The notes under the pieces were generated by a model. It ran no database searches and had not been told where the DNA came from. It saw nothing but the letters and a program-made list of their open reading frames with translations. From contig CBDCXV010000010.1 in assembly GCA_965223905.1 (NCBI GenBank), positions 928,001 to 992,000 on the forward strand: DNA of 64,000 nt. Reading direction: 5' to 3'. Shown here one piece after another: positions 3,933 through 15,589 of this stretch; the stretch's first letter is position 1; each line of letters starts with the position of its first letter. The translations under genes and the position numbers were made by a program. The stretch is from Candidatus Latescibacterota bacterium (GTDB lineage: Bacteria > Latescibacterota > UBA2968 > UBA8231).

Positions 3933-4661
3933 CTACAGGCCCGCCTGTTCCAGCATGTGCCCGACCAGCTCGACCGAGCGCTCGATGCAGTCGCGTCCGT
4001 GATCCGCGGTGGCGTCGCGCGGGTCCTCGCCGCCGACCCCCTGGGGCCAGACCTCGCGGTCGGGATCCAGGGCCCCGAGGTCGACGAGCTCGGGCCGCAG
4101 GGCCATCACCAGCGACGTCTCGTTGCGGGCGGCGTGGTCGATCTGGCTCTTCCACTCCCCGGCCACCTCTTCGGTGACCCCGAGCAGCTCGAGCCCGAAG
4201 CGCGCCTTGCGCTCTTCGAGGTGGGTCACCCAGGAGCGGCGCGAGGGGCCGTGGCCGTCGGCGAAGACCGCCTTGAAGCCGGCCCGCTTCACCTGCTCGA
4301 GGACGGCGTCGACGAGGGCGAGGAACAGCCCCTGCGAGACCCAGTAGCAGCTGCCGTCGAGCTGCCGGTTCGGCGCCGTCGCCCCGGCCATGTCCATCCC
4401 CTGCAGGAAGCTGCCGTCCTGCTGCCGCGAAGCGCGGTCGGGTCCCAGGTGAATCGGCGGCAGCACGATCCCCCCGAAGCGGCGCGCGCACTCGCACATC
4501 ACCCCCTCGCTGATGATGGCGTCGCTTCCGAGCGGCAGCTGCTCGCCGTGCCACTCCAGGGTTCCCAGCGGCAGGTAGGCCAGGGGCCGCTGCGCCAGGC
4601 GTTCGCGGAACTCCTGCGGCCGCAGCTCGGCGTAGCGCACCTTGTCGGACACGCTCATCAT
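3933..4661 (-). CDS. Creatininase-family amidohydrolase
   Basis: MMSVSDKVRYAELRP start inside ORF 3933..6110; motifs PLGTLEWHGEQLPLGSD, DGHG, DHAARNETS. Confidence 0.88.
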   Translation of the reverse strand: MMSVSDKVRYAELRPQEFRERLAQRPLAYLPLGTLEWHGEQLPLGSDAIISEGVMCECARRFGGIVLPPIHLGPDRASRQQDGSFLQGMDMAGATAPNRQLDGSCYWVSQGLFLALVDAVLEQVKRAGFKAVFADGHGPSRRSWVTHLEERKARFGLELLGVTEEVAGEWKSQIDHAARNETSLVMALRPELVDLGALDPDREVWPQGVGGEDPRDATADHGRDCIERSVELVGHMLEQAGL

Positions 4662-6529
4662 CCCTCCTCGCTGACGCGGGCGAAGCCATCGGGCGCCCTC
4701 ATGTTCGCGGCGGCGGCGCGGATCCAGGCGCCGGAGCGGACGCGCTCCTCGACCCGCAGGTGGACGACCTCGCCGTCGAGGCGGCTGCAGCCGTCGAGCT
4801 CGCCGACCTGCACCCCGGCGCCGCTGGCCGCAAGGTCTCCCTTTCCCTTCGCGGTCGCCGCGAGCCGTCCGTCGATGTAGAGCCGCGCCTCCCCGCCGTC
4901 GTACACCCCGGCGACGTGATGCCACCCCGGCCCGGGGTTGCCGTTGGCGCGCGCGCTCACCGGACCGGTCTTGGTGTTGACGGTGAACACCGGGCCGGGC
5001 AGCGAGGCCCCGAGGCCGCCGTTGTGGCCGCAGTCCATGTACTTGAGCAGGAACCGCGCCCCGTCGCCGGCGGTGTCGTAGCGCAGCACCTGCCCGTGCG
5101 GAAAGATCGTGCCGTCCCCGGTCGGGTCGCCCGGCTCCCCGTCCTTGCGCCACGGCGCGAAGTAGAGGAAACGGCCGTCGAAGGCGCCGCCGTTGAAGCC
5201 GCCGGGATTGGGGGGCGCCAGCAGCGAGCCGTCCGCGGCGCTCCAGGCCTCCCCGTCGGCGAAGCCCTTGCTGGTGTCGTAGCGCAGCAGCTCGCAGTGG
5301 AAGCCGCTCTCGTCGGCGCCGCCGTTGTAGAACGGGACGAAGTACACGTAGCGGCCGTCGAACAGGGCGCCGTCGAAGCCGCGGCAGTCCAGGCCGGAGG
5401 TCCCGGCGACGTCGCGCGACTCCCAGCTCGCCCCCGCATCGAACGGGGCCTCGGTGTCGAAGCGCACCACCGCGGTGTTGTCGCCGTAGGGCACGTAGTA
5501 CACGTGGCGGCCGTCGAACACCGCCCCGTCGTAGCAGGAGCAGGCCACGCCGCCGGTATCGCCGGCGTCCCAGGTCTCGTAGCTGCCCGCCTCGGCGAAC
5601 GGCGCCGTGGTGTCGTAGCGGATCACCAGCCCGCTGCCGCCGCCGCCGTCGCCGTCGTATCCCGGGACGTAGTACACGTAGCGGCCGTCGAAGGCGCAGC
5701 CCTGGGAGGAGCGCGCCACCCCGAGATCGAAGGCCGACCACGCCGCCGGATCGCGGAAGTCGCCGTTGCCGGCATCGTAGCGCAGCATGACGCTGTGGAG
5801 CTTCCCGGCGCTGTTGTGGCGCGGCGCGTAGAAGACGTAGCGGCCGGTGCAGGCGACCCCGTAGTACCCGGTCGTGTCGAGCCCGGAGGTCCTGCCGGCG
5901 TCGTACGCCGACCAGCTTCCCGGGTCGTCGAAGCCGCCGTGGGTGTCGTAGCGCAGCGCCGTTCCGTGGCGCCCCGCGGTGTTGCACTGCGGCGAGAAGT
6001 AGACGTAGCGGCCGTCGCACATCGCCCCGAAGAACCCCCGCGTCTCCAGGCCGTCGGTGGCGCCGGCGTCGTAGGTGGCGAAGCGCTCGAGAGCGGCGGC
6101 CAGCGGCCACTGCGAGGCGATCACCTGCATCTGTTCGGCACGGGACTCCCCGGCGTGGATCCAGGATTCGACGGTCAGGGCGCTGCCGCCGCGGTTTCCG
6201 TCGCTCGATTTGTCCGTCGCCTGCGGAGATTCTTCTGAAACGGGGAACCGGCAGCTCCGGGTGAACGGGTCTTCCCGGCCTCCGGAACCGCTGCCCCCGG
6301 GCGCGGCGAAGAAGACGGTGTCGGCCGCCGCGGTCACCTCGGGCAGGAGCACCCGGACCAGGGATTCCCCGGGGGTTCCGAACGGGACGCTCGGAAGCTC
6401 CCTGCCCTGTGAGTCGGTGAAGGTGAGGCCGCCTGCCGCCGCGGCCTCCGGCAGCCTGACGACCACCGGGAAGTCCGCCAGGTCCGCGGCCACGGCCCCC
6501 GCGGCGATGGTGATGCGCAGCCGCTTCAT
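4658..6529 (-). CDS. LamG-like jelly-roll protein with an inserted six-repeat beta-propeller
   Basis: Six GxxxDGR(Y/F/H)VY(F/Y)xP...LRYD(T/A)-type repeats flanked by LamG halves (LTVESWI ... WHHVAGVYDG...LYIDG). Confidence 0.75.
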   Translation of the reverse strand: MKRLRITIAAGAVAADLADFPVVVRLPEAAAAGGLTFTDSQGRELPSVPFGTPGESLVRVLLPEVTAAADTVFFAAPGGSGSGGREDPFTRSCRFPVSEESPQATDKSSDGNRGGSALTVESWIHAGESRAEQMQVIASQWPLAAALERFATYDAGATDGLETRGFFGAMCDGRYVYFSPQCNTAGRHGTALRYDTHGGFDDPGSWSAYDAGRTSGLDTTGYYGVACTGRYVFYAPRHNSAGKLHSVMLRYDAGNGDFRDPAAWSAFDLGVARSSQGCAFDGRYVYYVPGYDGDGGGGSGLVIRYDTTAPFAEAGSYETWDAGDTGGVACSCYDGAVFDGRHVYYVPYGDNTAVVRFDTEAPFDAGASWESRDVAGTSGLDCRGFDGALFDGRYVYFVPFYNGGADESGFHCELLRYDTSKGFADGEAWSAADGSLLAPPNPGGFNGGAFDGRFLYFAPWRKDGEPGDPTGDGTIFPHGQVLRYDTAGDGARFLLKYMDCGHNGGLGASLPGPVFTVNTKTGPVSARANGNPGPGWHHVAGVYDGGEARLYIDGRLAATAKGKGDLAASGAGVQVGELDGCSRLDGEVVHLRVEERVRSGAWIRAAAANMRAPDGFARVSEEG

Positions 6530-7562: not shown

Positions 7563-7720
7563 CTACTCTCCCTGTGTGTCGATCAGAACCTTCATCAGCT
7601 CGCCGCCCGCCTCGATCTCCTCGAAGACGCCCTGGAGGTCGCCGAGCCCCCGGCGCGCCGAGATCAGGCGCTCGAGCGGCAGCTCGCCGGAGGCGACCAT
7701 CGCTATGGCGGCGTCGTAGT
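7563..7720 (-). pseudogene. 3' part of a Zn-dependent alcohol/sugar dehydrogenase interrupted by the transposon
   Basis: YDAAIAMVASGELPLERLIS...MKVLID joins in frame to 14720..15589 once the element and one target-duplication copy are removed. Confidence 0.9.
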
Positions 7721-7765
7721 GGAACTTATAACCCCTACTACAATCTGCTGAACGCAGAGATTTTG
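7721..7765 (+). repeat. Left terminal inverted repeat (45 bp)
   Basis: GGAACTTATAACCCCTACTACAATCTGCTGAACGCAGAGATTTTG, exact reverse complement of 14675-14719. Confidence 0.97.
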
Positions 7766-7819
7766 TGCGGGTAGCGGTTATAACTTCCGGTCGTTCTGTC
7801 AATCCCTGTTGAGCTGTTC

Positions 7820-8026
7820 TTATTCTTCCGTATCTTCTTTGTCCTTGGAATTATCGGTTAGCTTGCGTAAGGCTATCGGACCGCCGACAGCTACAGCTAC
7901 GAAAGCGGTTATGCCTAATCCGATAAGTAGTCGATCCGGCTCGCTGGAATTCCAGCTGATGTCGAAACCTGGGACTTTGAAGGAAAAGCCTTCCTCCTTC
8001 TTGAAAGCGTTCGTGAAGTCGATCAT
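7820..8026 (-). CDS. Small single-TM hypothetical cargo protein
   Basis: Likely start MIDFTNAF at 8026; hydrophobic LLIGLGITAFVAVAVGG followed by a charged tail. Confidence 0.5.
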   Translation of the reverse strand: MIDFTNAFKKEEGFSFKVPGFDISWNSSEPDRLLIGLGITAFVAVAVGGPIALRKLTDNSKDKEDTEE

Positions 8027-8269
8027 GACGTGTTTCTCGTGGCGAAGGATGTAGGTAGTTCGATAGGGTGCGGTTCGGCATCCCATCGAATGAAATCTTC
8101 GAGTATACGGAAAGATTCGAGAATTCGCAAGGCAGGGATTGACAGCTAAAAAGAACAGGGACAATAATCTATCCCTGCTCTTTTAGTCAGCGTTTATTGC
8201 CAAAGTGATTGAGCACTATCTGGATCAGCTCAAGACTAACCTCCAGCAGAATCGCGACCCACTTCGGTA

Positions 8270-8566
8270 TCATTGCCCACCTCCTTTCTTGTGAGGGTCA
8301 GTTTCCTCGCCTTTCTCGGAGTGATCCCCGTTTTTTGTGAACCTGCCGTTCTCGTCGCGTTTTTGCGCTTCCTGTCGCCGGGTTTCGTTGGGATCGACGC
8401 CGTTTTGTATATCTTCCTGCGCTTCCCTGAAATCCCGCTTCACGACATTCAGCTTGGACCGCAACCTCTCGGTGAGAAATCTTTCCACCGCAAAGCGTAT
8501 CGCGTAGACCCCGGCTTCCTTGACAACAAGAACGCCTACGGTCATGAGTATTGGCTTCCACGACAT
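8270..8566 (-). CDS. Hypothetical cargo protein with N-terminal hydrophobic segment and RDENGRF motif
   Basis: AGGGGG ribosome-binding site before ATG; 98 aa. Confidence 0.6.
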   Translation of the reverse strand: MSWKPILMTVGVLVVKEAGVYAIRFAVERFLTERLRSKLNVVKRDFREAQEDIQNGVDPNETRRQEAQKRDENGRFTKNGDHSEKGEETDPHKKGGGQ

Positions 8567-8701
8567 GATTTACCCCCTTTCATAGGAGTTTGAGAATGAA
8601 CAACAGACTACCAGACGATTTCAGAGACGAAATCGCCAAGAAACAGAGACAGGAGACTCAGAGACTACGGAAGGAGAACGCGGAGCTACGTAAGCAGGCA
8701 C

Positions 8702-8747
8702 AAAAAACCCCCGGCTCACAAGAAACCGGGGGCGGTTGTTTTTTTTT
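8702..8747. terminator. Probable bidirectional intrinsic terminator
   Basis: A6-CCCCCGG...CCGGGGG followed by a T9 run; lies just past the stop of 8767..8997(-). Confidence 0.6.
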
Positions 8748-8766
8748 CTCTGGTGGGGAAGGTGAG

Positions 8767-8997
8767 TTAGGGATTGGCCCTGGCTTTGAGCTGGCTTCTC
8801 AAAGATTCGATTTGATACTCAAGGGCGTCGAGGTCGTTTCTCTTGAAATTGATCTTCTTGATGAGGTTATCACAGAGCTCGTCGATTACTGTAGGGCTCG
8901 GGGATTGATCGATTAAATGCTTTTGTATATCATCTCTAAGCTCTGATTTTATCTTTTCTACCTCTTCTTCGAAGGCATCCCAGTAATTTCTTGTCAC
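8767..8997 (-). CDS. Small helical/coiled-coil hypothetical cargo protein
   Basis: 76-aa charged helical ORF ending just before the terminator. Confidence 0.45.
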   Translation of the reverse strand: MTRNYWDAFEEEVEKIKSELRDDIQKHLIDQSPSPTVIDELCDNLIKKINFKRNDLDALEYQIESLRSQLKARANP

Positions 8998-9117
8998 CTT
9001 TGCTTTCCCTTTCTTTGGGTTATCCTGCTAAGATTGCGGTTAGTCCGACGATTCCACAAAAAATTATGAATACCCATAAAATGCAAGCCAGTATCCAGCC
9101 AAGGAACCGTAACATTG

Positions 9118-9714
9118 TTACCTGGCTCCGCTTTCAATCAGTAGCCTTATTATCTCATCATGAGTATCGGGACCACAATTTGAGCTTACCCAAGTGTAAG
9201 CTTGGCTGAATTCTAATAGCGAGAATTCTAATTTCCTTGAATCGCTTCCTGGGAAGTCGATCCGCAAGACTGCCGTATCGTTTGAACTTTTCAAGTGCTC
9301 TATTAGCTCTTTGAATTTTCGATTGTCTATGTTTTTTTTGTGGCGCTCCCATCTGTCCTTGTCTCTGAGTAGTTCAACTCTTGCAACTCCAATAGGGGAA
9401 ACAAACCCCTTGAAAGATTTTGTTTCCGACCCAGACGTTATTTTGAATACAACCGCCTCATCTGTTTCAGACATATATATCGGTCTTGTTGGATCTTTGC
9501 GGTTATAGGTGAACGACATCCACTGTCCAGGCCAGCTTTTATGATATTCGCACTGTATCCACAATTCAGGGCTTTTTTTGTTGGTCATTGTGACGGTTAA
9601 CCTGGTTTTTCCCCATGTATTCATCCTTAGATTCCATGATTCATTAGATGGCCCTTTAAATTCATACGCGGAAGATGCAACAGTAGACAGTAGTAGCAGA
9701 GACAGTAACAGCAT
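9118..9714 (-). CDS. Secreted hypothetical cargo protein
   Basis: 198 aa; signal-peptide-like MLLLSLLLLSTVASSA; GGGGA upstream of ATG. Confidence 0.6.
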   Translation of the reverse strand: MLLLSLLLLSTVASSAYEFKGPSNESWNLRMNTWGKTRLTVTMTNKKSPELWIQCEYHKSWPGQWMSFTYNRKDPTRPIYMSETDEAVVFKITSGSETKSFKGFVSPIGVARVELLRDKDRWERHKKNIDNRKFKELIEHLKSSNDTAVLRIDFPGSDSRKLEFSLLEFSQAYTWVSSNCGPDTHDEIIRLLIESGAR

Positions 9715-9946
9715 AGCAGACTTTCCCCGCGTCGAAGAATGATAGAATTCGACTAACCCTGTAGCTCCCCAGGGTAGCCGGGTTCAGTCAACTTCCACGT
9801 AAGATTTCGGGAAAGTCTGCCTTATTTGCCACATTCGGGGGGAGATCAAACCCCCTGAACAGGAAAGTCTGGCTATTGTATTCGGGCAGGGACCCGACAC
9901 GAGAGGTTCCTACGTGAAGCTGACTAACGGGAAGAATACGAACTGC

Positions 9947-9974
9947 TTGACATTACCGCAAGGGATATTATCTT
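9947..9974 (+). promoter_or_regulatory. Sigma70-like promoter for a probably leaderless 9981 ORF
   Basis: TTGACA (9947)-16 nt-TATCTT (9969); ATG 7 nt downstream. Confidence 0.45.
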
Positions 9975-9980
9975 ACCAAC

Positions 9981-10226
9981 ATGATTGATAGAATAGTCAG
10001 ACAGACACTGCGCAAACTGCGCGGCCAGGGCATAGACAAGGAAGCTGAAAAGCTGGCTGCCACCTTCTTTGAGCCCGTGAAAAGTAGTGCTAATATGTGT
10101 AGTAAGTGCGGTGCTCGTCCTGCGTTCAAGGGCAATGATTACTGCGTTGAATGCGCTTCTACACAGTCAACTATGTCGCCACAAGTGCATCCGTCAGAAG
10201 TAGAATCAAAGGCAACGCCGGATTAG
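9981..10226 (+). CDS. Small zinc-finger-like hypothetical protein
   Basis: CSKC...CVEC in an 81-aa ORF. Confidence 0.5.
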   Translation: MIDRIVRQTLRKLRGQGIDKEAEKLAATFFEPVKSSANMCSKCGARPAFKGNDYCVECASTQSTMSPQVHPSEVESKATPD

Positions 10227-10342
10227 CCGGGGAGAGAAAATATCCCGGCTGTATAAGAGCACGGCTGGAAACTGGGTGATTCCGAGAGTCAGTTCCCACT
10301 TGCGGGGGTTAGGAGGCCCCACCGTGCCATACAATACTACGC

Positions 10343-11338
10343 CTACCGTTCCCGTATCACAAGGTCACAGTATTTCAACCGCTTACCGATCATTCGGCGG
10401 AATAGGTGTTTCATCTGTTCGTCGGTATCCTCGTTACGGATGTTCGCCTTCCCAACAAACTCGTCAAGATATTTTTGAGCATGTTCTAACGACCACTTGT
10501 AATAGGTGCCGTGGTATGCTCGCTTGACGTGCGCCCAGAAATTTTCCATCCCGTTCGTATGTGACTTGCCGTTCACCCACTGCCTTGCAGTGTGGTTGAC
10601 GTATTCGTTTTTCCGTATCCAGTCAAACCCTATGTAGGCTGTTGCGCTATCGCTGTATAGGGTCCCCTGTCGTCGCATATGTAGCTTTGCGAACGCTTGC
10701 AGTGTTTCCGCATCGTCATTTTCGATGACTTTGACGACGAACTTGCCGGTTTTCCTGTCCTTCATGCCTACGACAAGTGATTTTCCCTGTCGCCAGTCAC
10801 CGCGAAGACGCTTTTTTGAGTGCTTGTTTCCTTCCAATCCGCCGAAATACGCCTCGTCAATCTCGGCTGCTTTGCTCTTGAGCTTATCTTGATCTTCCCA
10901 CCCCTTGCGGATTCGGTGCAGCATGAACCATGCCGTTTTCTGTGACACGTCGATGTCCCGGTGTAGTTTCATCGAGCTTATGCTCTTCAGGCTGGATAGG
11001 TGCAGATAGATCGCAATCACCCATTTTTGGAGCGGAATGTTCGTCCCTTCCATTACGGATTTTGTTCTCACGCTGAAGTATCGGTGACAACCGCCGCACC
11101 AATACGGCATAGGTCGCCGGTTTTTCCGCTTGTGAACGTCGTCCATACTGCCACAATGGGGGCAATACATTCCGATTTCGCCCCATCGCACTTGCTCGAA
11201 CCACTTTTCTGCTGCTTCTTCATCAGGGAATCGTCTGAACAGTTCCGGCAGGGAGATACCCTTACGGGTGCTCTTTCCCGGACCTTCCGGTTTACGATTA
11301 CCGACGTTCGACCACTTACCAAGAAACTTCATTCTCAA
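10343..11338 (-). CDS. IS1595-family (ISXO2-like) DDE transposase
   Basis: Zn ribbon CPHC...CGGC; HTH 'SSMKLHRDIDVSQKTAWFMLHRIR'; catalytic EIDEAY, YSD, HTNGMENFW; YLDEF. Confidence 0.95.
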   Translation of the reverse strand: MRMKFLGKWSNVGNRKPEGPGKSTRKGISLPELFRRFPDEEAAEKWFEQVRWGEIGMYCPHCGSMDDVHKRKNRRPMPYWCGGCHRYFSVRTKSVMEGTNIPLQKWVIAIYLHLSSLKSISSMKLHRDIDVSQKTAWFMLHRIRKGWEDQDKLKSKAAEIDEAYFGGLEGNKHSKKRLRGDWRQGKSLVVGMKDRKTGKFVVKVIENDDAETLQAFAKLHMRRQGTLYSDSATAYIGFDWIRKNEYVNHTARQWVNGKSHTNGMENFWAHVKRAYHGTYYKWSLEHAQKYLDEFVGKANIRNEDTDEQMKHLFRRMIGKRLKYCDLVIRER

Positions 11339-11439
11339 TTTCTCCTTATTAGGGATTGAGGGTGATAGGGGAGAGGGTTTCGTTTGGATGCGGCCCTCTC
11401 CCCGCTATTCATTAGATATAGGTGCGGCACGAAACGGCG

Positions 11440-11655
11440 TCAAAACCCCTGTCCGTCTGACTTGTAGGCCAGGACAAGACCCCTTTCCTGGTGGTGAATG
11501 ATCGCTCCCATCAGACAGAGATACCTTTCGGGCATCGCTCGTTTCCCCTTCTCCCATAGGCATATCTCCGCCTCACTGACCCCAAGGGCGACCCCCAGCT
11601 CCCATTGCTTCATGCCGACAGCATCGCGGGCACACTTCAACTGCGATTGTTCCAT
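11440..11655 (-). CDS. XRE/Cro-like helix-turn-helix regulator
   Basis: LKCARDAVGMKQWELGVALGVSEAEICLWEKGKRAMP; AAAGGA ribosome-binding site. Confidence 0.8.
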   Translation of the reverse strand: MEQSQLKCARDAVGMKQWELGVALGVSEAEICLWEKGKRAMPERYLCLMGAIIHHQERGLVLAYKSDGQGF

Positions 11656-11791
11656 TTGACACGTCCTTTCTGAATGACTATGATGCTGAAAAGGGGACAG
11701 GGAGGACCGGAATCGTCCCCCCTGTCCGAGCGGAATCCGTATTCACAAACCCGGTATTTGTGACAGAACAGGACCCGCTTTCTTTCGGAGG

Positions 11792-12001
11792 CTACTTCCC
11801 ATCGCACCTAATCCAGCCTTCCGGCTTTTGAGATACGGTCGTGATTTCTGACAGCCTGAACACCAGCTCACGTATCGTCCCGCCGTGCTCCTGGCGGTGC
11901 TGCGTTGCTTCGGGCAAGGTCTCAAAACGGTGCACCTTGCTTTCTTTTACTACAATCCACCGACGTATTACCCAGCTCGGTAGGTTCACTTCATCGGGCA
12001 T
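11792..12001 (-). CDS. Small hypothetical cargo protein
   Basis: AAGGAG ribosome-binding site; 69 aa. Confidence 0.5.
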   Translation of the reverse strand: MPDEVNLPSWVIRRWIVVKESKVHRFETLPEATQHRQEHGGTIRELVFRLSEITTVSQKPEGWIRCDGK

Positions 12002-12147
12002 TAGACACTCCTTTCTATTGGGGTTATGTGGCGCAGTTCTTGTGCTGGCTATGGCTGCACAATTGGCGACAGCCCATAAAGATGAAGTGTCTTGGGCACT
12101 CGGTCTGGACCTACCGGTGAAAACATTTTAATTGCGGCTGATTAACA

Positions 12148-12360
12148 ATGGAAGAATTAATAGCAGGTGGTTCTTTTTTAATAGCTCTTATTGGATTGGT
12201 GTGGCAGATTAGATCCGGAAACAGAAAAATAATCGAGCAAATTAACACGAGTAATGTGATAATAGAGGTTCGCAATACGTCTACTGAGAAAAAGGGAGGC
12301 AATCTAAGTGCCAATATACAAGCAGAAACAGTTCATATCTATCAGGGGGGGGTATCCTAA
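12148..12360 (+). CDS. Small N-terminal TM hypothetical protein
   Basis: LIAGGSFLIALIGLVW; stop directly abuts the next ATG. Confidence 0.5.
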   Translation: MEELIAGGSFLIALIGLVWQIRSGNRKIIEQINTSNVIIEVRNTSTEKKGGNLSANIQAETVHIYQGGVS

Positions 12361-12822
12361 ATGAGCCACTTATTTCACATAGTTTTAAATACAGGGTCAG
12401 TGTCTGTTTCTACCAAGTACGAAGATATAGAGGTAATCGGAAAGATTAATCCTTGTTCTCAAGTTCAGATAGAAAACCTACAATTCGAGGGGTCATCTTT
12501 TTTTAGCTGGTTCCAAGAGAAAAATGTATTGTCGTTTGATTTGAGATTGCGCGGCAAATGTGTTGGAAACTGTTGGTGTGTTCAGAAAAAAGGGACTCAT
12601 ATAAGGAGGGTATTAGATGACATCAAACAAGCTCATCCAGGATCCTATACAGATAAGTTAGTTGACTTGCCTGTCCCTTGGATTGCTCTATGGCTGATTC
12701 AGGAAAATTGGGATAAGGCCGAAGATGCGTTCCTGATTTCTCCTTATATGTTGCGAGAGGTGCGCGACTGGATTGACAACAGAAGACGTTCGGTTAGGGA
12801 GGAGGTAGTAACTCATGATTAG
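12361..12822 (+). CDS. Hypothetical cargo protein
   Basis: 153-aa ORF in AT-rich DNA with a G-rich ribosome-binding site. Confidence 0.55.
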   Translation: MSHLFHIVLNTGSVSVSTKYEDIEVIGKINPCSQVQIENLQFEGSSFFSWFQEKNVLSFDLRLRGKCVGNCWCVQKKGTHIRRVLDDIKQAHPGSYTDKLVDLPVPWIALWLIQENWDKAEDAFLISPYMLREVRDWIDNRRRSVREEVVTHD

Positions 12823-12852
12823 TGCGGCTGATTAGCGAAACTCCCCCTTTTC

Positions 12853-12861
12853 TGGTATAAT
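12853..12861 (+). promoter_or_regulatory. Extended -10 promoter upstream of the 13015 gene pair
   Basis: TGgTATAAT, followed by hairpin AGAGGATCACGTTTAGAACGCGGTTCTCT. Confidence 0.45.
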
Positions 12862-13014
12862 ACTATAGAGGATCACGTTTAGAACGCGGTTCTCTGTTTT
12901 GCTACCTTCGATTTTTCTAACCGTCAGGTGTATAATCGTCCCTCTAATATTACGGATAAATGGTGTAGAGCGAACCTCAGTAGGCAGGTCCCCAGGTAGG
13001 ACTCGACTTCCCCT

Positions 13015-13554
13015 ATGAATGGCATAAGGTCTTATTTATCTGAGGTTTTTTGGAAAACACCTGGGAGGTTTATTTTTCTTGCAACTGCTGTCATTACAAT
13101 TGGCCAATGGTTTATTGACATTGGAGATACCTGGACGCTTGAAAGAAAGGCATTCTCATCGGCAATTTTATTCTTGGGAGTTCTGAGTTTTGGAACGGTT
13201 CGTGCATCCTATTCGATGCACACAAGAACGAATCAGATTTTGTCTGCACAAGAGACAGCTGCCTACTTGCCTGTAAAAACCATAATCTCTGGACCGTTTC
13301 GTGTTGCGGTTATTTTGGATACAAGTGATACAGTGTTTATTGGAGATGTATTAAGCATATTTAATACTATTGGAGATGCAGAGTTTCCTGTCTGCGTTAT
13401 ATCAATAGATGCTGTCACCGACAAAGGATTTCTGCAGGGGTCATTGGTTCCCCCACAAAGCGATGAATCCCTGTCTGAATTTTTAAACGAACCGGAAAGA
13501 TTAACAGCGAAACGCAGTATAACCATAAGAGATATAGAATGCCTCAACGCATAG
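13015..13554 (+). CDS. Two-TM protein with C-terminal beta-rich domain
   Basis: Two hydrophobic segments, then VILDTSDTVFIGDVLSIF; overlaps the next gene. Confidence 0.65.
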   Translation: MNGIRSYLSEVFWKTPGRFIFLATAVITIGQWFIDIGDTWTLERKAFSSAILFLGVLSFGTVRASYSMHTRTNQILSAQETAAYLPVKTIISGPFRVAVILDTSDTVFIGDVLSIFNTIGDAEFPVCVISIDAVTDKGFLQGSLVPPQSDESLSEFLNEPERLTAKRSITIRDIECLNA

Positions 13555-13967
13555 ATGTAAGACACGACGCTGTTGTTGCAAAGGCTTTAAATAATGAGCG
13601 TCGAGTTGTGCTCAATAAAGGATCAAATGATGGGATTCAAAAAGGAGATGATTTTATTGTATTCGGCTCTGGAAATGAAATTGTTGATCCAAGCACAGGG
13701 ATAAGTCTCGGCATTCTTGAAGAAATTAAGGGGAAGGGTAGGGTTATACATGTTCAAGAAAAAATGTGCACTATTGAAACTTATGAATATGATAATGAAA
13801 TTGTTTCTAACTCCCTTGGGGTATATTCATTTTTTGGCCCAAGAAAAGTTAGAGTTTATCGAGATTTTGAAGACATAGAAGTTGGCGACTTAGCTCGAAA
13901 AATTAGATATAAAACCTCCCCGAAGCAGTTGGCCACAGTGGCGGCTACTACGACTCAGGAAGATTGA
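13539..13967 (+). CDS. FlgT C-terminal-like beta-barrel protein
   Basis: VVLNKGSNDGIQKGDDFIVF...EIVDPSTGISLG...GKGRVIHVQEK pattern. Confidence 0.7.
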   Translation: MPQRIDVRHDAVVAKALNNERRVVLNKGSNDGIQKGDDFIVFGSGNEIVDPSTGISLGILEEIKGKGRVIHVQEKMCTIETYEYDNEIVSNSLGVYSFFGPRKVRVYRDFEDIEVGDLARKIRYKTSPKQLATVAATTTQED

Positions 13968-14001
13968 ATTGCCACGTATTAAACCTTCTTCAGTATCTCA
14001 A

Positions 14002-14048
14002 TTATGACGTATAGAATTCAGGCTCTTATGACGATAGAATTCAGGCTC
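14002..14048 (+). repeat. Tandem 24/23-bp duplication
   Basis: TTATGACGTATAGAATTCAGGCTC then TTATGACG-ATAGAATTCAGGCTC. Confidence 0.9.
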
Positions 14049-14164
14049 TTTCTCTTTCGCGTAGGATCGTTTATGTCGGGTTCCTGGCTGAATACAACGG
14101 GTGGCTGGCGGTGGTGTTAGAACTAACGCTTGAACTGATACGAATTATATTTAATCGGTGAAGG

Positions 14165-14674
14165 TAGGGGAGACGCCGCAATGGACGCCTCCCCGTTGGT
14201 GACCCCTTTCATTTCCTCGCTCTACGGGAGCGCCTAACCCGGAGGCAATGGTTGGGTCTGTTGCATGCAGGATGCTGCGGCTGGGATTCTGAGGCATTAA
14301 TTTCCAGAGAGAAGCGAGCTGCTTCCCTACTGGGATCTTGGCGTTTTTGTAGGAACGTGCACAAGTATCTTGTGCTGGGGTTGATGCCTCTTCCCCCGCA
14401 GTGTCTTGCATACAAAGGTCATACATACATATCTGCTTTGTGCGGGTATGTCAACTAACAACGTAGGCGAGCGATGAAGCGGCTTCAAACCGCGTTAGCC
14501 ACCTACAGCGGGCAACTGAGATACATCAACCGAGCGGGGATTTGCGGTCCCCGGATGCCTCATAGCCTGCCATAGCGGAAGTGTTCGGGGAAGGGCTAAA
14601 CCGGCGGACTCTGGACACTGAAACAGCTACCCTATCTGTGACTGGATTTCGTCAAAAATCCACCGTCGCGGGTG
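14165..14674 (+). ncRNA. Candidate large structured RNA at the transposon right end
   Basis: Long nested stems with many G.U pairs on the + strand (14261-14280/14396-14415; 14291-14307/14375-14390), further hairpins up to the inverted repeat, and no credible ORF. Confidence 0.5.
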
Positions 14675-14719
14675 CAAAATCTCTGCGTTCAGCAGATTGT
14701 AGTAGGGGTTATAAGTTCC
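14675..14719 (-). repeat. Right terminal inverted repeat (45 bp)
   Basis: Exact reverse complement of 7721-7765. Confidence 0.97.
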
Positions 14720-15589
14720 GTCGTAGTCCTCCGGCTCGTACACGCGCACCCCGCACAGCCTCAGCTCGCGCCAGAAGAAGCGGAACAGGTCGATTTTCGG
14801 GGGATCGGCAAAAATGGCGACGACGACGATGCGACCGCGCGTGCGCACCAACTCCGTCATCACCCGGGCCCCCTCCTGGGTGCCGGAGACCTCGAACAGC
14901 ACGTCGGCGCCACCCGGGCTGTGCTCCTCCACGGCCCCGGCGAGATCGCGGGCGCGCGGGTCCACCGTCTCGAAACCGAGATCGCGGGCGAACTGCACCC
15001 GGTACGGGTTGACCTCGGCCAGCAGCACCTCGGCCCCGGCGTGGCGGCAGACCAGGGCTACCAGGGTTCCGATCGGGCCGCCGCCGATGACGACCGCCCG
15101 CTCCCCCGGTTTCACCTCGCCGAGACGGACGTCGTGGCAGGCCACGGCCAGCGGCTCGATCAGGGCCGCCAGCTCCATCGAGATGCCCTCGGGCAGCCGG
15201 TGCAGGGTGTGCGCCGGCACCGTCCAGGAGGCCTGGAAGGCCCCGGGGCTGTCGATGCCTATGAAGTTGAGATTCTGGCAGATGTGCTCGTGGCCGCGGC
15301 GGCAGGCCGGGCAGCCATGGCACGGCTCCAGCGGGCGCACGACGACCCCGTCCCCCGCGGCCCAGCCGCCGACCCCGGGACCGGTCTCGGCGATCGTCCC
15401 GGACATCTCGTGACCGATCACCAGCGGCGTGCTCACGCGCTGATCCATGTGGCCCTGGAAGATGTGCAGGTCGGTCCCGCACACGCCGCACCAGGCGACG
15501 TCGACGCGGACCTGTCCGGCCCCCGGGGCCACCGGCTCACACGGCCCCACTCCGATCTTCTTGCCGCCCTCGTAGAACGCCGCTTTCAC
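14720..15589 (-). pseudogene. 5' part of the interrupted Zn-dependent dehydrogenase (sorbitol/threonine dehydrogenase-like)
   Basis: CGTDLH, GHE, CxxCxxC...C, GGGPIG motifs; breaks after VYEPEDYD at the element end. Confidence 0.92.

What the first reader, a model, noticed from the sequence alone, without database searches (positions are those of the whole stretch)
7713..14727. Intact 7-kb IS1595-family cargo transposon with 45-bp perfect inverted repeats, central transposase and orphan cargo
Seen: perfect 45-bp terminal inverted repeats and an 8-bp duplication GTCGTAGT. The Zn-dehydrogenase re-joins in frame (YEPEDYD|AAIAM) when the element is removed, so the insertion is recent and the whole 7 kb moved as one unit. 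The single ~1-kb transposase sits mid-element with no nearer IS ends visible. It is surrounded by ~10 small low-GC ORFs (XRE regulator, Zn finger, small TM proteins, a secreted protein) and several structured non-coding segments. Known: IS1595 members make 8-bp duplications and some subgroups (ISNwi1, ISNha5) carry passenger genes. Inference: this is an undescribed member whose cargo looks phage/defence-like rather than resistance-like.
Basis: partly seen in the sequence, partly recalled or inferred. Interest (0 to 1): 0.8.

Follow-up and report, generated by a model that had tools for sequence, protein, structure and literature searches.

The report
IS1595 cargo transposon splitting a dehydrogenase gene
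This is a real, recently inserted 7-kb jumping gene of a known type (an IS1595-family insertion sequence that carries passenger genes); it is a clean example, not a new kind of element, and one pair of its passenger genes is otherwise found mostly in dormant viruses of bacteria.

Summary
Perfect 45-nt inverted repeats (7721-7765, 14675-14719) and an 8-bp duplication, GTCGTAGT, bound a 6,999-bp low-GC insert in a zinc alcohol-dehydrogenase gene. Removing the insert restores a 339-aa frame. Two genomes of the same genus carry the uninterrupted site with one GTCGTAGT. Contigs from the likely source sample also contain the exact empty joint.

The only transposase (10343-11338, minus strand) has the IS1595 DDE domain and zinc ribbon. 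No inverted repeats lie close around it, so a nested IS is not supported.

The element is a passenger-carrying IS1595 member, a "transporter IS". Its transposase is distant from everything found: at most 58% identity. This scan has reported the same kind of element before on other DNA.

New here:
- The genome holds three more duplication-flanked IS1595 cargo transposons (4.6, 10.7 and 25.9 kb). Their ends are related, and some carry SIR2 or TIR genes.
- Two adjacent cargo genes (13015-13967) form a conserved cassette: a two-helix membrane protein plus a FlgT-like beta-barrel protein. Elsewhere it sits mostly in prophage lysogeny or moron regions. The two proteins are predicted to bind each other. 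An anti-phage role is inferred, not shown.
- The other cargo genes are orphans.

Verdict: new member of a known kind, modest interest.

The parts
7713..7720 (.). Left copy of the 8-bp target-site duplication GTCGTAGT
   Evidence: A single copy stands at the empty site in G002 and G001.
7721..7765 (+). Left terminal inverted repeat, 45 nt, beginning GGAACTTATAAC. It contains a 5-bp-stem hairpin followed by a T-run at 7744-7758.
   Evidence: pair I1, 100% complementary; 0 expected by chance; terminator-like hairpin; the number of such sites in the region is not above chance.
7820..8164 (-). ORF of 114 aa with a C-terminal hydrophobic segment (read by eye). No homologue found.
   Evidence: No family in Pfam, PHROGs, PADLOC or NCBIfam. 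Only itself in its own genome. Open frame only.
8270..8566 (-). ORF of 98 aa: N-terminal hydrophobic segment and a charged tail. A module shared with related elements.
   Evidence: 41% identical homologue in the 25.9-kb sister element and a 54% N-terminal fragment in the C9 remnant. A second member of its 90% cluster sits on another assembly's 536-kb contig.
8707..8733 (-). Strong terminator-like hairpin (11 pairs, 7 G-C, then a T-run), just downstream of the 76-aa ORF on the minus strand. It lies in a stretch (8574-8777) that is 82% identical to the sister element.
   Evidence: It argues that the minus-strand ORF 8767-8997 is the real gene and the overlapping plus-strand ORF 8590-8916 is not.
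8767..8997 (-). ORF of 76 aa, coiled-coil-like. Only sub-threshold family hits.
9118..9714 (-). ORF of 198 aa with a signal-peptide-like N-terminus (read by eye). An orphan.
   Evidence: Only itself among 89 candidates from 5.8 billion proteins. The Atlas gives only unnamed clusters at 0.93. No family hit.
9981..10226 (+). ORF of 81 aa with a CxxC...CxxC zinc-ribbon pattern.
   Evidence: Sub-threshold Pfam zinc-ribbon hits, E 0.002-0.04.
10343..11338 (-). IS1595-family DDE transposase, 331 aa, intact frame. N-terminal zinc ribbon. D161, D230 and E265 are invariant among 8 paralogues.
11440..11655 (-). XRE-type helix-turn-helix protein, 71 aa, 101 nt upstream of the transposase gene on the same strand. 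The gene recurs at 75-86% protein identity in other low-GC islands of this genome, and at 80-88% DNA identity in at least 4 and 6 places in two same-genus genomes.
   Evidence: (weak HTH hits), and 84 (two further members of its 90% cluster on other assemblies' contigs).
11792..12001 (-). ORF of 69 aa, upstream of the XRE gene on the same strand. A shared module.
   Evidence: Two homologues (68% and 82%) in the 25.9-kb sister element. One further member of its 90% cluster.
12148..12360 (+). ORF of 70 aa with an N-terminal hydrophobic segment. Its stop abuts the next ORF's start.
   Evidence: Only sub-threshold hits to small holin-like or type I toxin models.
12361..12822 (+). ORF of 153 aa. 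An orphan.
   Evidence: Only itself among 44 candidates. No family hit.
13015..13554 (+). Cassette gene 1 ('A1'), 179 aa: two N-terminal membrane helices and a C-terminal beta-barrel.
   Evidence: 13 relatives among 1.84 billion representatives. Model pLDDT 81.7. Foldseek finds nothing at E<=0.001.
13539..13967 (+). Cassette gene 2 ('A2'), 142 aa: soluble FlgT_C/TsaP-like beta-barrel. It overlaps gene 1 by 16 nt.
   Evidence: 23 relatives. Its profile hits the TsaP chains 6ve2_O (9.7e-9) and 3jc8_Ta (9.7e-6). Foldseek hits the LPHT ring (5.8e-5) and FlgT (2.7e-4). Predicted complex with gene 1.
13968..14674 (.). ORF-poor right end, 707 nt. Two exact 17-nt direct repeats at 14011-14027 and 14034-14050. 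One unconvincing 91-aa ORF at 14151-14426 on the minus strand. Predicted to fold unusually well.
   Evidence: family D7; z -4.1 and -3.7, 20 shuffles each. No Rfam match. No relatives, so covariation cannot be tested.
14675..14719 (-). Right terminal inverted repeat, 45 nt.
14720..14727 (.). Right copy of the target-site duplication GTCGTAGT.
14728..15589 (-). N-terminal 287 codons of the interrupted zinc alcohol-dehydrogenase gene. The open frame runs on 33 codons into the element.
   Evidence: Pfam ADH_N 1e-29 and ADH_zinc_N 3.3e-20. 100% identical to the intact gene of G002.
7563..7712 (-). C-terminal remainder of the same dehydrogenase gene.
   Evidence: Rejoined frame of 339 aa. Collinear with the intact genes of G002 and G001.

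Best explanation
The stretch 7721-14719 is one autonomous transposon of the IS1595 family that carries passenger genes, a 'transporter IS'.

How it works (inferred). Its single DDE transposase, with an N-terminal zinc ribbon, binds the two identical 45-nt ends. It moved the whole 7.0 kb into a zinc alcohol-dehydrogenase gene, and staggered cuts 8 bp apart gave the GTCGTAGT duplication. The insertion is recent and is still polymorphic among close strains.

Gene layout. A small XRE-type regulator sits directly upstream of the transposase gene. Together with two small shared genes it forms a backbone that recurs in related elements. The rest is variable cargo.

The cargo cassette (inferred function). 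The cargo pair at 13015-13967 encodes a membrane-anchored protein and a soluble FlgT-like barrel protein. They probably form a complex on the cytoplasmic face of the membrane. Because the cassette elsewhere lies in prophage lysogeny and moron regions, the most likely role is exclusion of, or defence against, incoming phage.

Shown versus inferred. Shown: the ends, the duplication, the empty sites, the transposase family, single copy in this genome, the conservation and contexts of the cassette. Inferred: that this transposase acts on these ends, the mode of transposition, regulation by the XRE protein, the complex, and any anti-phage function.
For: Boundaries:
- 45/45 inverted repeats, 0 expected by chance.
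- 8-bp duplication.
- The host gene rejoins to 339 aa.
- Empty sites with a single GTCGTAGT in G002 (flanks 96.5-98.8% identical) and G001 (about 92%).
- A joint from 7711 to 14719 that skips 7,007 nt, with 9 letters fitting either side, in contigs of runs X1 (depth 25.3) and X2 (5.9), which are one sample.

Transposase:
- PF12762 at 3.4e-29 and PF12760 at 1.4e-6.
- NF033547 at 150.3 bits against a cut-off of 75.
- D161, D230 and E265 are invariant in 8 of 8 paralogues of this genome. A lysine lies 7 residues after E265.

One unit, not a nested IS:
- No inverted pair lies close around 10343-11338.
- There is only one transposase gene between the ends.

The ends fit the family:
- They begin GG.
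- A remnant at C9:822186 has a related end (19 of 26 positions identical) next to a homologue of the 98-aa ORF.
- Three other IS1595 elements in this genome carry related ends (GGGAATTATA...ACTACGCAAG, or for the 10.7-kb element GGGACCTA...) and their own 8-bp duplications: AACGCCAC, ATCGAGGC, GCTGAAAC.

Backbone versus cargo:
- The XRE gene, the 69-aa ORF and the 98-aa ORF have relatives in sister elements and further members of their 90% clusters on other assemblies.
- The 198-aa ORF, A1 and A2 are alone in their 90% clusters.
- In X1 the shared segments show extra contig depth, and contigs diverge at 8606, 10692, 10936/10942 and 14461.

Cassette:
- In 61 of 96 loci that encode an A2 relative, an A1-family ORF lies on the same strand. 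The gap was -17 to +13 nt in the six cluster examples printed.
- Of 16 loci inspected (14 without an A1 hit, plus L110 and L104), 11 have a tightly coupled upstream ORF with 1-2 hydrophobic segments.
- Among 12 diverse loci with neighbours scanned: Cro/C1-type HTH genes in 7, integrases in 3, antirepressors in 3, portal or terminase in 2, AbiEii in 1.
- Complex prediction on A1 residues 78-179 and A2 residues 1-126: score 0.61, best of 3 controls 0.02. That mark was reached by 116 of 157 solved complexes and 2 of 215 mismatched pairs. The three runs agree in at least 90% of contacts and the partner's pLDDT is at least 80. My own alignments were used, so these counts hold only roughly. The interface includes the near-invariant DPxTGESLGxLE stretch of A2.
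Against: - No listed contig bridges either junction. The contigs break at the 45-nt repeat and at the filled/empty branch. The junctions therefore rest on the assembly, the duplication and the empty sites.
- The empty joint has only 21 letters on its shorter side. The tool warns that a side under 30 can come from other organisms. Both runs are one sample and probably the source of the assembly, so they are not independent support.
- There is no second copy of the element anywhere (own genome, 40 relatives). Activity of this transposase on these ends is therefore inferred from one insertion.
- In the sister elements the transposase gene lies 0.4-0.6 kb from one end and reads outward. Here it lies 2.6 and 3.4 kb from the ends, so a rearranged origin cannot be excluded.
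- Against an anti-phage cargo: 0 of 23 A2-family members and none of the element's 13 non-transposase ORFs give a PADLOC hit above noise. 7 of the 13 context loci came from a viral collection, which biases the context. The 63-member cluster is mostly near-identical gut contigs. An A2 paralogue lies in ordinary high-GC host DNA. The FlgT/TsaP/MreC-like barrel is a generic fold.
Confidence: 0.9

Rival explanations
1. The 45-nt ends belong to a non-autonomous cargo element, and the transposase gene is a separate IS or a decayed IS remnant that landed inside it. The 7 kb would then have been moved in trans by a related enzyme encoded elsewhere.
For: The transposase is central, unlike in the sister elements, where it sits 0.4-0.6 kb from an end. 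The genome encodes at least seven other IS1595 transposase paralogues. A 266-nt non-coding gap (9715-9980) lies where an old IS end would be expected. It holds one arm of a 23-nt, 83% inverted pair (7807-7829 with 9930-9952).
Against: No inverted repeats or duplication lie around 10343-11338. By my own estimate a 23-nt pair with 19 matches is expected about 0.4 times by chance in a region of this size, and it does not bracket the transposase gene. No other transposase in the genome is closer than 57%. No other copy of these ends exists in the genome, so no trans-acting partner with matching ends is visible. The closest paralogue is also central, within a region that shares the same flanking modules. 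That points to an inherited layout.
Confidence: 0.06
2. The insert is an assembly chimera, in which low-GC foreign DNA was joined into the contig at a repeat, and not a real insertion.
For: The GC jump is sharp. In run X1 the element's contig depth (9-16) is lower than that of the flanks (24-52). No listed contig bridges the junctions.
Against: A chimera would not create an exact 8-bp duplication of the target, perfect inverted ends and an in-frame rejoin. Nor would it match the single-copy site in two other genomes to the base. The lower depth is explained by the co-existing empty allele at depth 25.3. In run X2 the element (8-11) and the flanks (10-12) have similar depth.
Confidence: 0.02
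3. The element is the remnant of a small integrative element or phage satellite. It would use the DDE enzyme as its integrase and still have an extrachromosomal life, so it would not be a plain transposon.
For: The cargo includes an XRE-type regulator and a cassette typical of prophage lysogeny modules. The element is low in GC.
Against: No replication, packaging, capsid, relaxase or recombinase gene was found in any of four libraries. No tRNA or att-like target is present. The ends and the 8-bp duplication are those of DDE transposition.
Confidence: 0.02

Closest known systems
Passenger-carrying IS1595-family insertion sequences ('transporter IS', tIS; Siguier, Gagnevin and Chandler 2009). 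I did not read that paper. It is cited from passages in PMC11891212 and PMC9330008. The family definition is taken from a passage in PMC8101967.
   Same: DDE_Tnp_IS1595 domain with an N-terminal zinc ribbon. One transposase gene. 8-bp duplication. Ends that begin GG. Passenger genes inside the inverted repeats, among them a transcription regulator; PMC11891212 names ISNha5 as a member that carries regulators. The size is within the range I recall for the largest ISfinder subgroup (recalled, not checked).
   Different: The transposase is only 32-58% identical to the relatives found. It lies mid-element with cargo on both sides. There are about 12 passenger ORFs, mostly without any relative. Subgroup assignment could not be tested without ISfinder.
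Sister IS1595 cargo transposons in the same genome: C11:1961238-1965811 (4.6 kb), C2:410023-420751 (10.7 kb), C11:1182940-1208810 (25.9 kb)
   Same: Same transposase family at 42-57% identity. Low GC. Own 8-bp duplications. Shared small modules: the XRE gene, the 69-aa ORF and the 98-aa ORF with its upstream region. The 4.6-kb and 25.9-kb elements have GG-AT-rich ends with an ACTAC core like this one; the 10.7-kb element begins GGGACCTA.
   Different: Different end sequences. In the 4.6-kb and 25.9-kb elements a transposase gene lies next to one end. Different cargo: SIR2_2, TIR_2, DUF4145, WD40, SWIB/DnaJ. The 25.9-kb element has about 520-bp inverted ends, made of one whole and one truncated IS copy.
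Prophage superinfection-exclusion genes of lactococcal phages: Sie2009, and the two-component SieF7/2AB (passages in PMC7693887)
   Same: This is a likeness in how it may work, for the cassette at 13015-13967 only. Both involve a small protein with a hydrophobic N-terminus encoded in lysogeny modules. A two-component form, a membrane protein plus a second protein, is known.
   Different: No sequence relation was found or is claimed. The second component here is a FlgT/TsaP-like barrel, not a zinc-binding protein. No experiment exists. Here the cassette rides on a transposon, not a prophage.
Composite transposons (two IS copies flanking captured DNA)
   Same: Moves several unrelated genes between inverted IS-type ends.
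   Different: There is only one transposase gene and no IS-sized terminal repeats. The ends are 45 nt.

Membership tests
IS1595 family (as defined in PMC8101967, passage seen) | C-terminal DDE_Tnp_IS1595 catalytic domain | tested here: met
   PF12762 at 3.4e-29, 102 bits against a cut-off of 27. NF033547 at 150.3 bits against a cut-off of 75. D161, D230 and E265 invariant in 8 of 8 paralogues.
IS1595 family | N-terminal zinc-finger domain Zn_Tnp_IS1595 (all groups except IS1016) | tested here: met
   PF12760 at 1.4e-6, 28.6 bits against a cut-off of 25.4, residues 38-86.
IS1595 family | 8-bp target-site duplication | tested here: met
   GTCGTAGT on both sides. A single copy at the empty sites.
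IS1595 family | A single transposase gene between terminal inverted repeats that begin GG | tested here: met
   One transposase ORF. The 45-nt ends begin GGAAC.
Transporter IS (tIS): an IS derivative with passenger genes inside its ends (PMC9330008) | Genes unrelated to transposition between the inverted repeats, moved together with the transposase | tested here: met
   About 12 further ORFs lie inside the ends. The empty sites show that the whole 6,999 bp is the inserted unit.
ISfinder subgroup (ISNwi1-like or ISNha5-like) | Subgroup-specific end consensus and motif around the catalytic residues | not testable with these tools
   ISfinder is not available. The paper with the table was not held. 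From memory only: the ends (GG, then an AT-rich TTATA core) and a lysine 7 residues after the catalytic E resemble the ISNwi1 group more than ISNha5.
Composite transposon | Two IS copies, whole or partial, at the ends | tested here: not met
   The only long inverted pair is the 45-nt ends. There is no second transposase gene or fragment.
Known anti-phage defence systems (PADLOC-DB 2.0) | A cargo protein matches a defence-system model | tested here: not met
   0 hits for 12 of the 13 non-transposase ORFs. The XRE protein gives only weak HTH-region hits. 0 of 23 A2-family members hit.
FlgT_C / TsaP-type beta-barrel domain (for the 142-aa cargo protein) | Sequence or fold match to the FlgT C-terminal barrel | tested here: inconclusive
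   Pfam FlgT_C is below its cut-off (18 bits against 27) and matches 7 of 23 members at E<=0.01. The family profile hits TsaP chains at 9.7e-9 and 9.7e-6. Foldseek hits the LPHT ring at 5.8e-5 and FlgT at 2.7e-4, but with TM only 0.45-0.47.

The most novel reading that the evidence does not exclude
The cassette at 13015-13967 is an undescribed two-component anti-phage system, acting by superinfection exclusion or abortive infection. It pairs a two-helix membrane protein with a FlgT/TsaP-like cytoplasmic barrel protein. Temperate phages carry it in their lysogeny modules, and here an IS1595 transposon has picked it up. In this genus the IS1595 cargo transposons (4.6 to 25.9 kb, others with SIR2 and TIR genes) would then act as mobile carriers of defence genes.
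Probability: 0.3. Interest if true: 0.55.

Novelty: new member of a known kind. Interest (0 to 1): 0.33.

Why it matters
This is an unusually well-bounded example of an IS that moves a 6-kb load of passenger genes. Both ends, the duplication, the empty site in sister genomes and the co-existing empty allele in the same sample are all visible. It can therefore serve as a reference element for a poorly sampled, uncultured lineage; earlier notes of this scan call the genome Latescibacterota, which I did not check.

The more useful lead is the cargo. A conserved membrane-protein and barrel-protein pair, absent from the defence and family libraries searched here, recurs in prophage lysogeny modules of many bacteria and is predicted to form a complex. 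It can be tested cheaply in laboratory strains.

Four duplication-flanked IS1595 cargo transposons in one genome, some with SIR2 or TIR genes, add to the picture of insertion sequences as carriers of accessory and defence genes.

Tried and rejected
- **Nested IS.** I searched for inverted pairs bracketing the transposase gene with word size 7 and a minimum of 11 nt, in addition. Only chance-level pairs appeared. The 23-nt, 83% pair 7807-7829 with 9930-9952 does not bracket the gene, and by my estimate is expected about 0.4 times by chance.
- **Other copies of the ends.** Exact, 3-mismatch and 7-substitution searches of the window and genome found only the two ends and one related remnant on C9. 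A genome-wide regex search allowing indels timed out with no output. I replaced it with blastn-short, which found no partner for the remnant.
- **Inner element in the 25.9-kb island.** I looked for ends around its central transposase, the closest paralogue at 57%. None was found.
- **C2:484079-492285.** It has related ends but no matching 8-bp flanks. I do not count it as an intact unit.
- **RNA families and tRNAs.** Rfam gave two matches far below gathering scores: SymR-like at 11327-11406 (E 0.68) and a lncRNA model (E 0.93). I treat both as chance. No tRNA or tmRNA was found.
- **Promoter-like sites.** 8 found against 8.6 expected. They carry no weight.
- **Atlas search for the 198-aa ORF.** Only unnamed clusters. 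The nearest named ones (YfjT, TagO/VasI, IalB) score 0.88-0.89 and are leads at most.
- **Foldseek for the A1 model.** Nothing at E<=0.001.
- **The plus-strand ORF 8590-8916.** Its match to the sister element breaks into two frames and is less conserved as protein (62%) than as DNA (82%). A strong minus-strand terminator lies inside it. I read this stretch as intergenic.
- **The plus-strand ORF 11841-12131.** It overlaps the 69-aa minus-strand ORF and looks non-protein-like. I rejected it as a gene.
- **Read laying.** No listed contig bridged a junction. A second joint (10714 to 10914, skipping 199 nt, X1 only, side 23) probably comes from a paralogous transposase. Parts with lower cover are not evidence.
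- **Literature.** The 2014 review with the IS family table was not held, and the 2009 IS1595 paper was not available. I made no search for prior descriptions of the A1/A2 cassette, so I do not claim that it is unpublished. What I can say is that the 23 A2-family proteins carry no informative name and no family library holds them.

Full report

Yes, in every checkable detail.
- The repeat finder reports one outstanding inverted pair: 7721-7765 and 14675-14719, 45 nt, 100% complementary. The next best pair is 23 nt at 83%.
- The 45-mer matches exactly twice in the window even with 3 mismatches allowed, against 0 in 100 shuffles.
- It occurs nowhere else in the 7.9-Mb, 11-contig genome.
- Directly outside the repeats stands GTCGTAGT on both sides, at 7713-7720 and 14720-14727.
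- Removing the element and one repeat copy gives a continuous 339-aa minus-strand frame with both Pfam zinc-dehydrogenase domains. It reads ...YEPEDYD|AAIAM... at the joint.
- GC is 0.38-0.56 inside and 0.70-0.74 in both flanks. The contigs average 0.63-0.65.

**2. Empty sites**

I used the N-terminal 287 residues of the split dehydrogenase to search 40 relatives. The two other genomes of the genus hold the orthologue at 100% (G002) and 94% (G001) identity in an uninterrupted frame.

At the DNA level the left and right flanks of the window align to adjacent stretches of both loci. The stretches overlap by 9 nt: the 8-bp target plus one chance base. The printed junctions show a single GTCGTAGT in both genomes.

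Two public runs from one sample, probably the source, hold 97-98% of the sampled words of the stretch. Their contigs contain a joint from 7711 to 14719 that skips 7,007 nt, with 9 letters fitting either side. Its depth is 25.3 in X1 and 5.9 in X2. The element stands at depth 9-16 in X1 and 8-11 in X2.

So filled and empty alleles co-exist. In X1 the left-flank contig differs from the window at two positions, which suggests that the empty allele there belongs to a very close strain.

Caveats:
- The joint has only 21 letters on its shorter side.
- No listed contig bridges a filled junction.
- The runs are not independent of the assembly.

**3. The transposase, and whether it is nested**

The 331-aa ORF at 10343-11338 (minus strand) matches the following:
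- Pfam DDE_Tnp_IS1595 at 3.4e-29 and Zn_ribbon_IS1595 at 1.4e-6.
- NCBIfam transpos_IS1595 at 150 bits against a cut-off of 75.
- PHROG 25593 at 1.1e-27.

Aligned with seven paralogues of the same genome, D161, D230 and E265 are invariant. A lysine follows E265 by 7 residues.

A dedicated search for inverted pairs bracketing the gene found only 11-24-nt pairs. These lie far from the gene or inside other ORFs. Nothing resembling the terminal sequence recurs inside the element. The 7 kb is one unit with one transposase.

**4. How distant is it?**

- The element is single-copy in its genome.
- No full-length match turned up in 40 relatives. 10 of 41 genomes, counting G000, have partial matches, almost all to the transposase or the XRE gene. 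At most 7 candidates per genome were scored.
- Among one genome per species, 360 stretches encode relatives of the transposase. The best 80 are 32-58% identical, and the 58% hit covers only residues 18-148.
- In 72,556 plasmids, 405 records match, all below 60% and the best about 35%. Where annotated, they are called IS1595 family transposase.

It is a divergent member. Whether ISfinder already lists it could not be tested.

**5. A family of such elements in this genome**

tblastn finds seven further full-length or nearly full-length IS1595 transposase genes at 40-57% identity, plus fragments. Several lie in low-GC islands.

Three islands are bounded by inverted ends with their own 8-bp duplications:

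| Element | Size | Duplication |
|---|---|---|
| C11:1182940-1208810 | 25.9 kb, about 520-bp ends at 90% identity | AACGCCAC |
| C11:1961238-1965811 | 4.6 kb | ATCGAGGC |
| C2:410023-420751 | 10.7 kb | GCTGAAAC |

A fourth candidate, C2:484079-492285, has related ends but no duplication.

The ends of the 25.9-kb and 4.6-kb elements begin GGGAATTAT... (GGGGATTAT... at one end of the latter) and carry an ACTACGCAAG core. The present element begins GGAACTTATAACCCCTACTACAATC. The 10.7-kb element begins GGGACCTA. A 0.7-kb low-GC remnant at C9:821500-822186 ends in a sequence identical to ours at 19 of 26 positions. It sits next to a fragment homologous to the 98-aa ORF. The ends thus vary together with the transposases, as expected for cognate pairs.

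Pfam finds the following in the sister elements: SIR2_2 (two proteins), TIR_2, DUF4145, WD40, SWIB/DnaJ and DUF1232 (70 ORFs of at least 90 aa scanned).

**6. Backbone and cargo**

Three small genes of the element recur in the sister islands.
- The XRE-type gene has four further copies at 75-86% protein identity.
- The 69-aa ORF upstream of it has two copies.
- The 98-aa membrane ORF recurs together with about 200 nt upstream of it, at 82% DNA identity.

The similarity around the XRE gene ends sharply at the gene's borders. The gene appears at least 4 times in G001 and 6 times in G002 at 80-88% DNA identity. These three proteins also have further members of their 90% clusters on contigs of other assemblies. 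The 198-aa, 179-aa and 142-aa cargo proteins are alone in theirs.

In run X1 the shared segments stand at higher contig depth than the right-arm cargo (20-25 against 9). Contigs diverge from the element at 8606, 10692, 10936/10942 and 14461. This hints that the community holds relatives with other cargo.

The XRE gene lies 101 nt upstream of the transposase gene on the same strand. Regulation of transposase or cargo by it is an inference. A review passage names transcription regulators as passengers of an IS1595 member (PMC11891212).

**7. What the cargo is**

Pfam, PHROGs, PADLOC and NCBIfam give nothing above threshold for any cargo ORF. There are only weak HTH hits for the XRE protein and weak zinc-ribbon hits for the 81-aa ORF. 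The 198-aa signal-peptide-like protein and the 153-aa protein find only themselves in 5.8 billion sequences.

The overlapping pair at 13015-13967 is different.
- **Relatives.** The 179-aa protein (A1) has 13 relatives among 1.84 billion representatives. The 142-aa protein (A2) has 23 relatives at 31-61% identity. A2 also has 143 relatives in metagenome contigs, of which 80 were kept, and 16 in viral contigs.
- **A1 model.** pLDDT 81.7: two N-terminal membrane helices and a C-terminal barrel.
- **A2 model.** pLDDT 82.1: all-beta. Its best Foldseek matches are the LPHT ring (5.8e-5) and FlgT (2.7e-4) at TM 0.45-0.47. Its sequence profile hits the TsaP chains at 9.7e-9 and 9.7e-6. Pfam FlgT_C stays below threshold.
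- **Linkage.** In 61 of 96 A2 loci an A1-family ORF lies on the same strand. The gap was -17 to +13 nt in the six cluster examples printed. Most of the 15 loci without such an ORF in the two largest clusters have under 260 nt of upstream sequence. Counted by cluster at 70% identity, 6 of 21 clusters have an A1 hit.
- **The remaining loci.** Of 16 loci inspected (14 without an A1 hit, plus L110 and L104), 15 have a closely coupled upstream ORF. 11 of those have 1-2 hydrophobic segments.
- **Complex.** Complex prediction on the A1 barrel and A2 gives 0.61 against a best control of 0.02. That mark was reached by 116 of 157 solved complexes and 2 of 215 mismatches. The runs agree in at least 90% of contacts and the partner's pLDDT is at least 80. 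My own alignments were used, so these counts hold only roughly.

**8. Context of the cassette elsewhere**

For 13 diverse loci I scanned 70 neighbouring ORFs, chosen from the 119 listed. One short contig had none to send. Among the 12 loci with neighbours:
- 7 have Cro/C1-type HTH genes.
- 3 have integrases.
- 3 have Rha/Bro-ANT antirepressors.
- 2 have ImmA-type M78 peptidases.
- 2 have portal or terminase genes.
- 2 have DNA methyltransferases.
- 1 has AbiEii.
- 1 has DUF4041-T5orf172.
- 1 has an IS4-type transposase.

This is the neighbourhood where temperate phages keep genes expressed in the lysogen. Lactococcal superinfection-exclusion proteins are small membrane proteins with a hydrophobic N-terminus, encoded in lysogeny modules, and a two-component form is known (passages of PMC7693887).

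The likeness is one of place and architecture, not of sequence. 7 of the 13 loci come from a viral collection. An A2 paralogue also sits in ordinary host DNA. I therefore give an anti-phage role about 0.3.

**9. Right end**

The last 707 nt before the right repeat hold no convincing ORF. They carry two exact 17-nt direct repeats 23 nt apart. They fold better than all 20 shuffles on both strands, with z -4.1 and -3.7. There are no relatives, so this stays unexplained.

**10. Verdict**

This is an IS1595-family transporter IS: real, intact, recently inserted and still polymorphic. It is a new and distant member of a known kind.

The scan has reported the same kind before on other DNA. Those notes agree with this reading and were not tested here.

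What raises it slightly above routine is the completeness of the evidence, the family of four such elements in one genome, and the uncharacterised two-protein cassette.

Noticed in passing
G000 C11:1182940-1208810 (loci L200, L201): A 25.9-kb low-GC transposon bounded by about 520-bp inverted ends at 90% identity. The ends are one whole IS1595 copy on the right and a truncated copy on the left, flanked by the 8-bp duplication AACGCCAC. It carries a SIR2_2 protein, WD40, SWIB/DnaJ, DUF1232, two XRE copies and a second, central IS1595 transposase. That central transposase is the closest paralogue (57%) of the one studied here.
   Followed up: partly
G000 C2:410023-420751 (locus L204) and C11:1961238-1965811 (locus L202): Two more duplication-flanked IS1595 cargo transposons. 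The 10.7-kb one has the duplication GCTGAAAC, two transposase genes, TIR_2, DUF4145 and an XRE copy. The 4.6-kb one has the duplication ATCGAGGC.
   Followed up: partly
window 11458-11655, with copies at G000 C11:1162261, C11:1201708, C11:1203610 and C2:417034, and in G001 and G002: The 71-aa XRE gene behaves like a sharply bounded module of about 210 nt, at 80-88% DNA identity with unrelated flanks. It is present in at least 5, 4 and 6 copies in the three genomes of the genus. What keeps so short a unit conserved and mobile was not worked out.
   Followed up: partly
G000 C9:821500-822186: A solo remnant of about 0.7 kb from a relative of this element. It has a related end (19 of 26 positions identical) and a fragment of the 98-aa ORF. 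No partner end was found.
   Followed up: yes
G000 C10:637662-638270 (outside the window): A 202-aa paralogue (35% identity) of the 142-aa barrel protein lies in ordinary high-GC host DNA. So the domain is not confined to mobile elements.
   Followed up: no
window 13968-14674: The ORF-poor right end has two exact 17-nt direct repeats (14011-14027, 14034-14050) and unusually stable predicted folding on both strands. A contig in run X1 shares only the last 260 nt or so, from 14461, and then diverges.
   Followed up: partly
window 7744-7758, and its mirror inside 14675-14719: Each terminal repeat contains a small hairpin followed by a T-run, facing inward. It could stop transcription entering from the host gene. 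The number of terminator-like sites in the region is not above chance.
   Followed up: no
window 3933-6529: Upstream of the element several very long overlapping ORFs lie on both strands in 72-74% GC DNA. These are typical high-GC artefacts around one real gene of about 620 aa.
   Followed up: no
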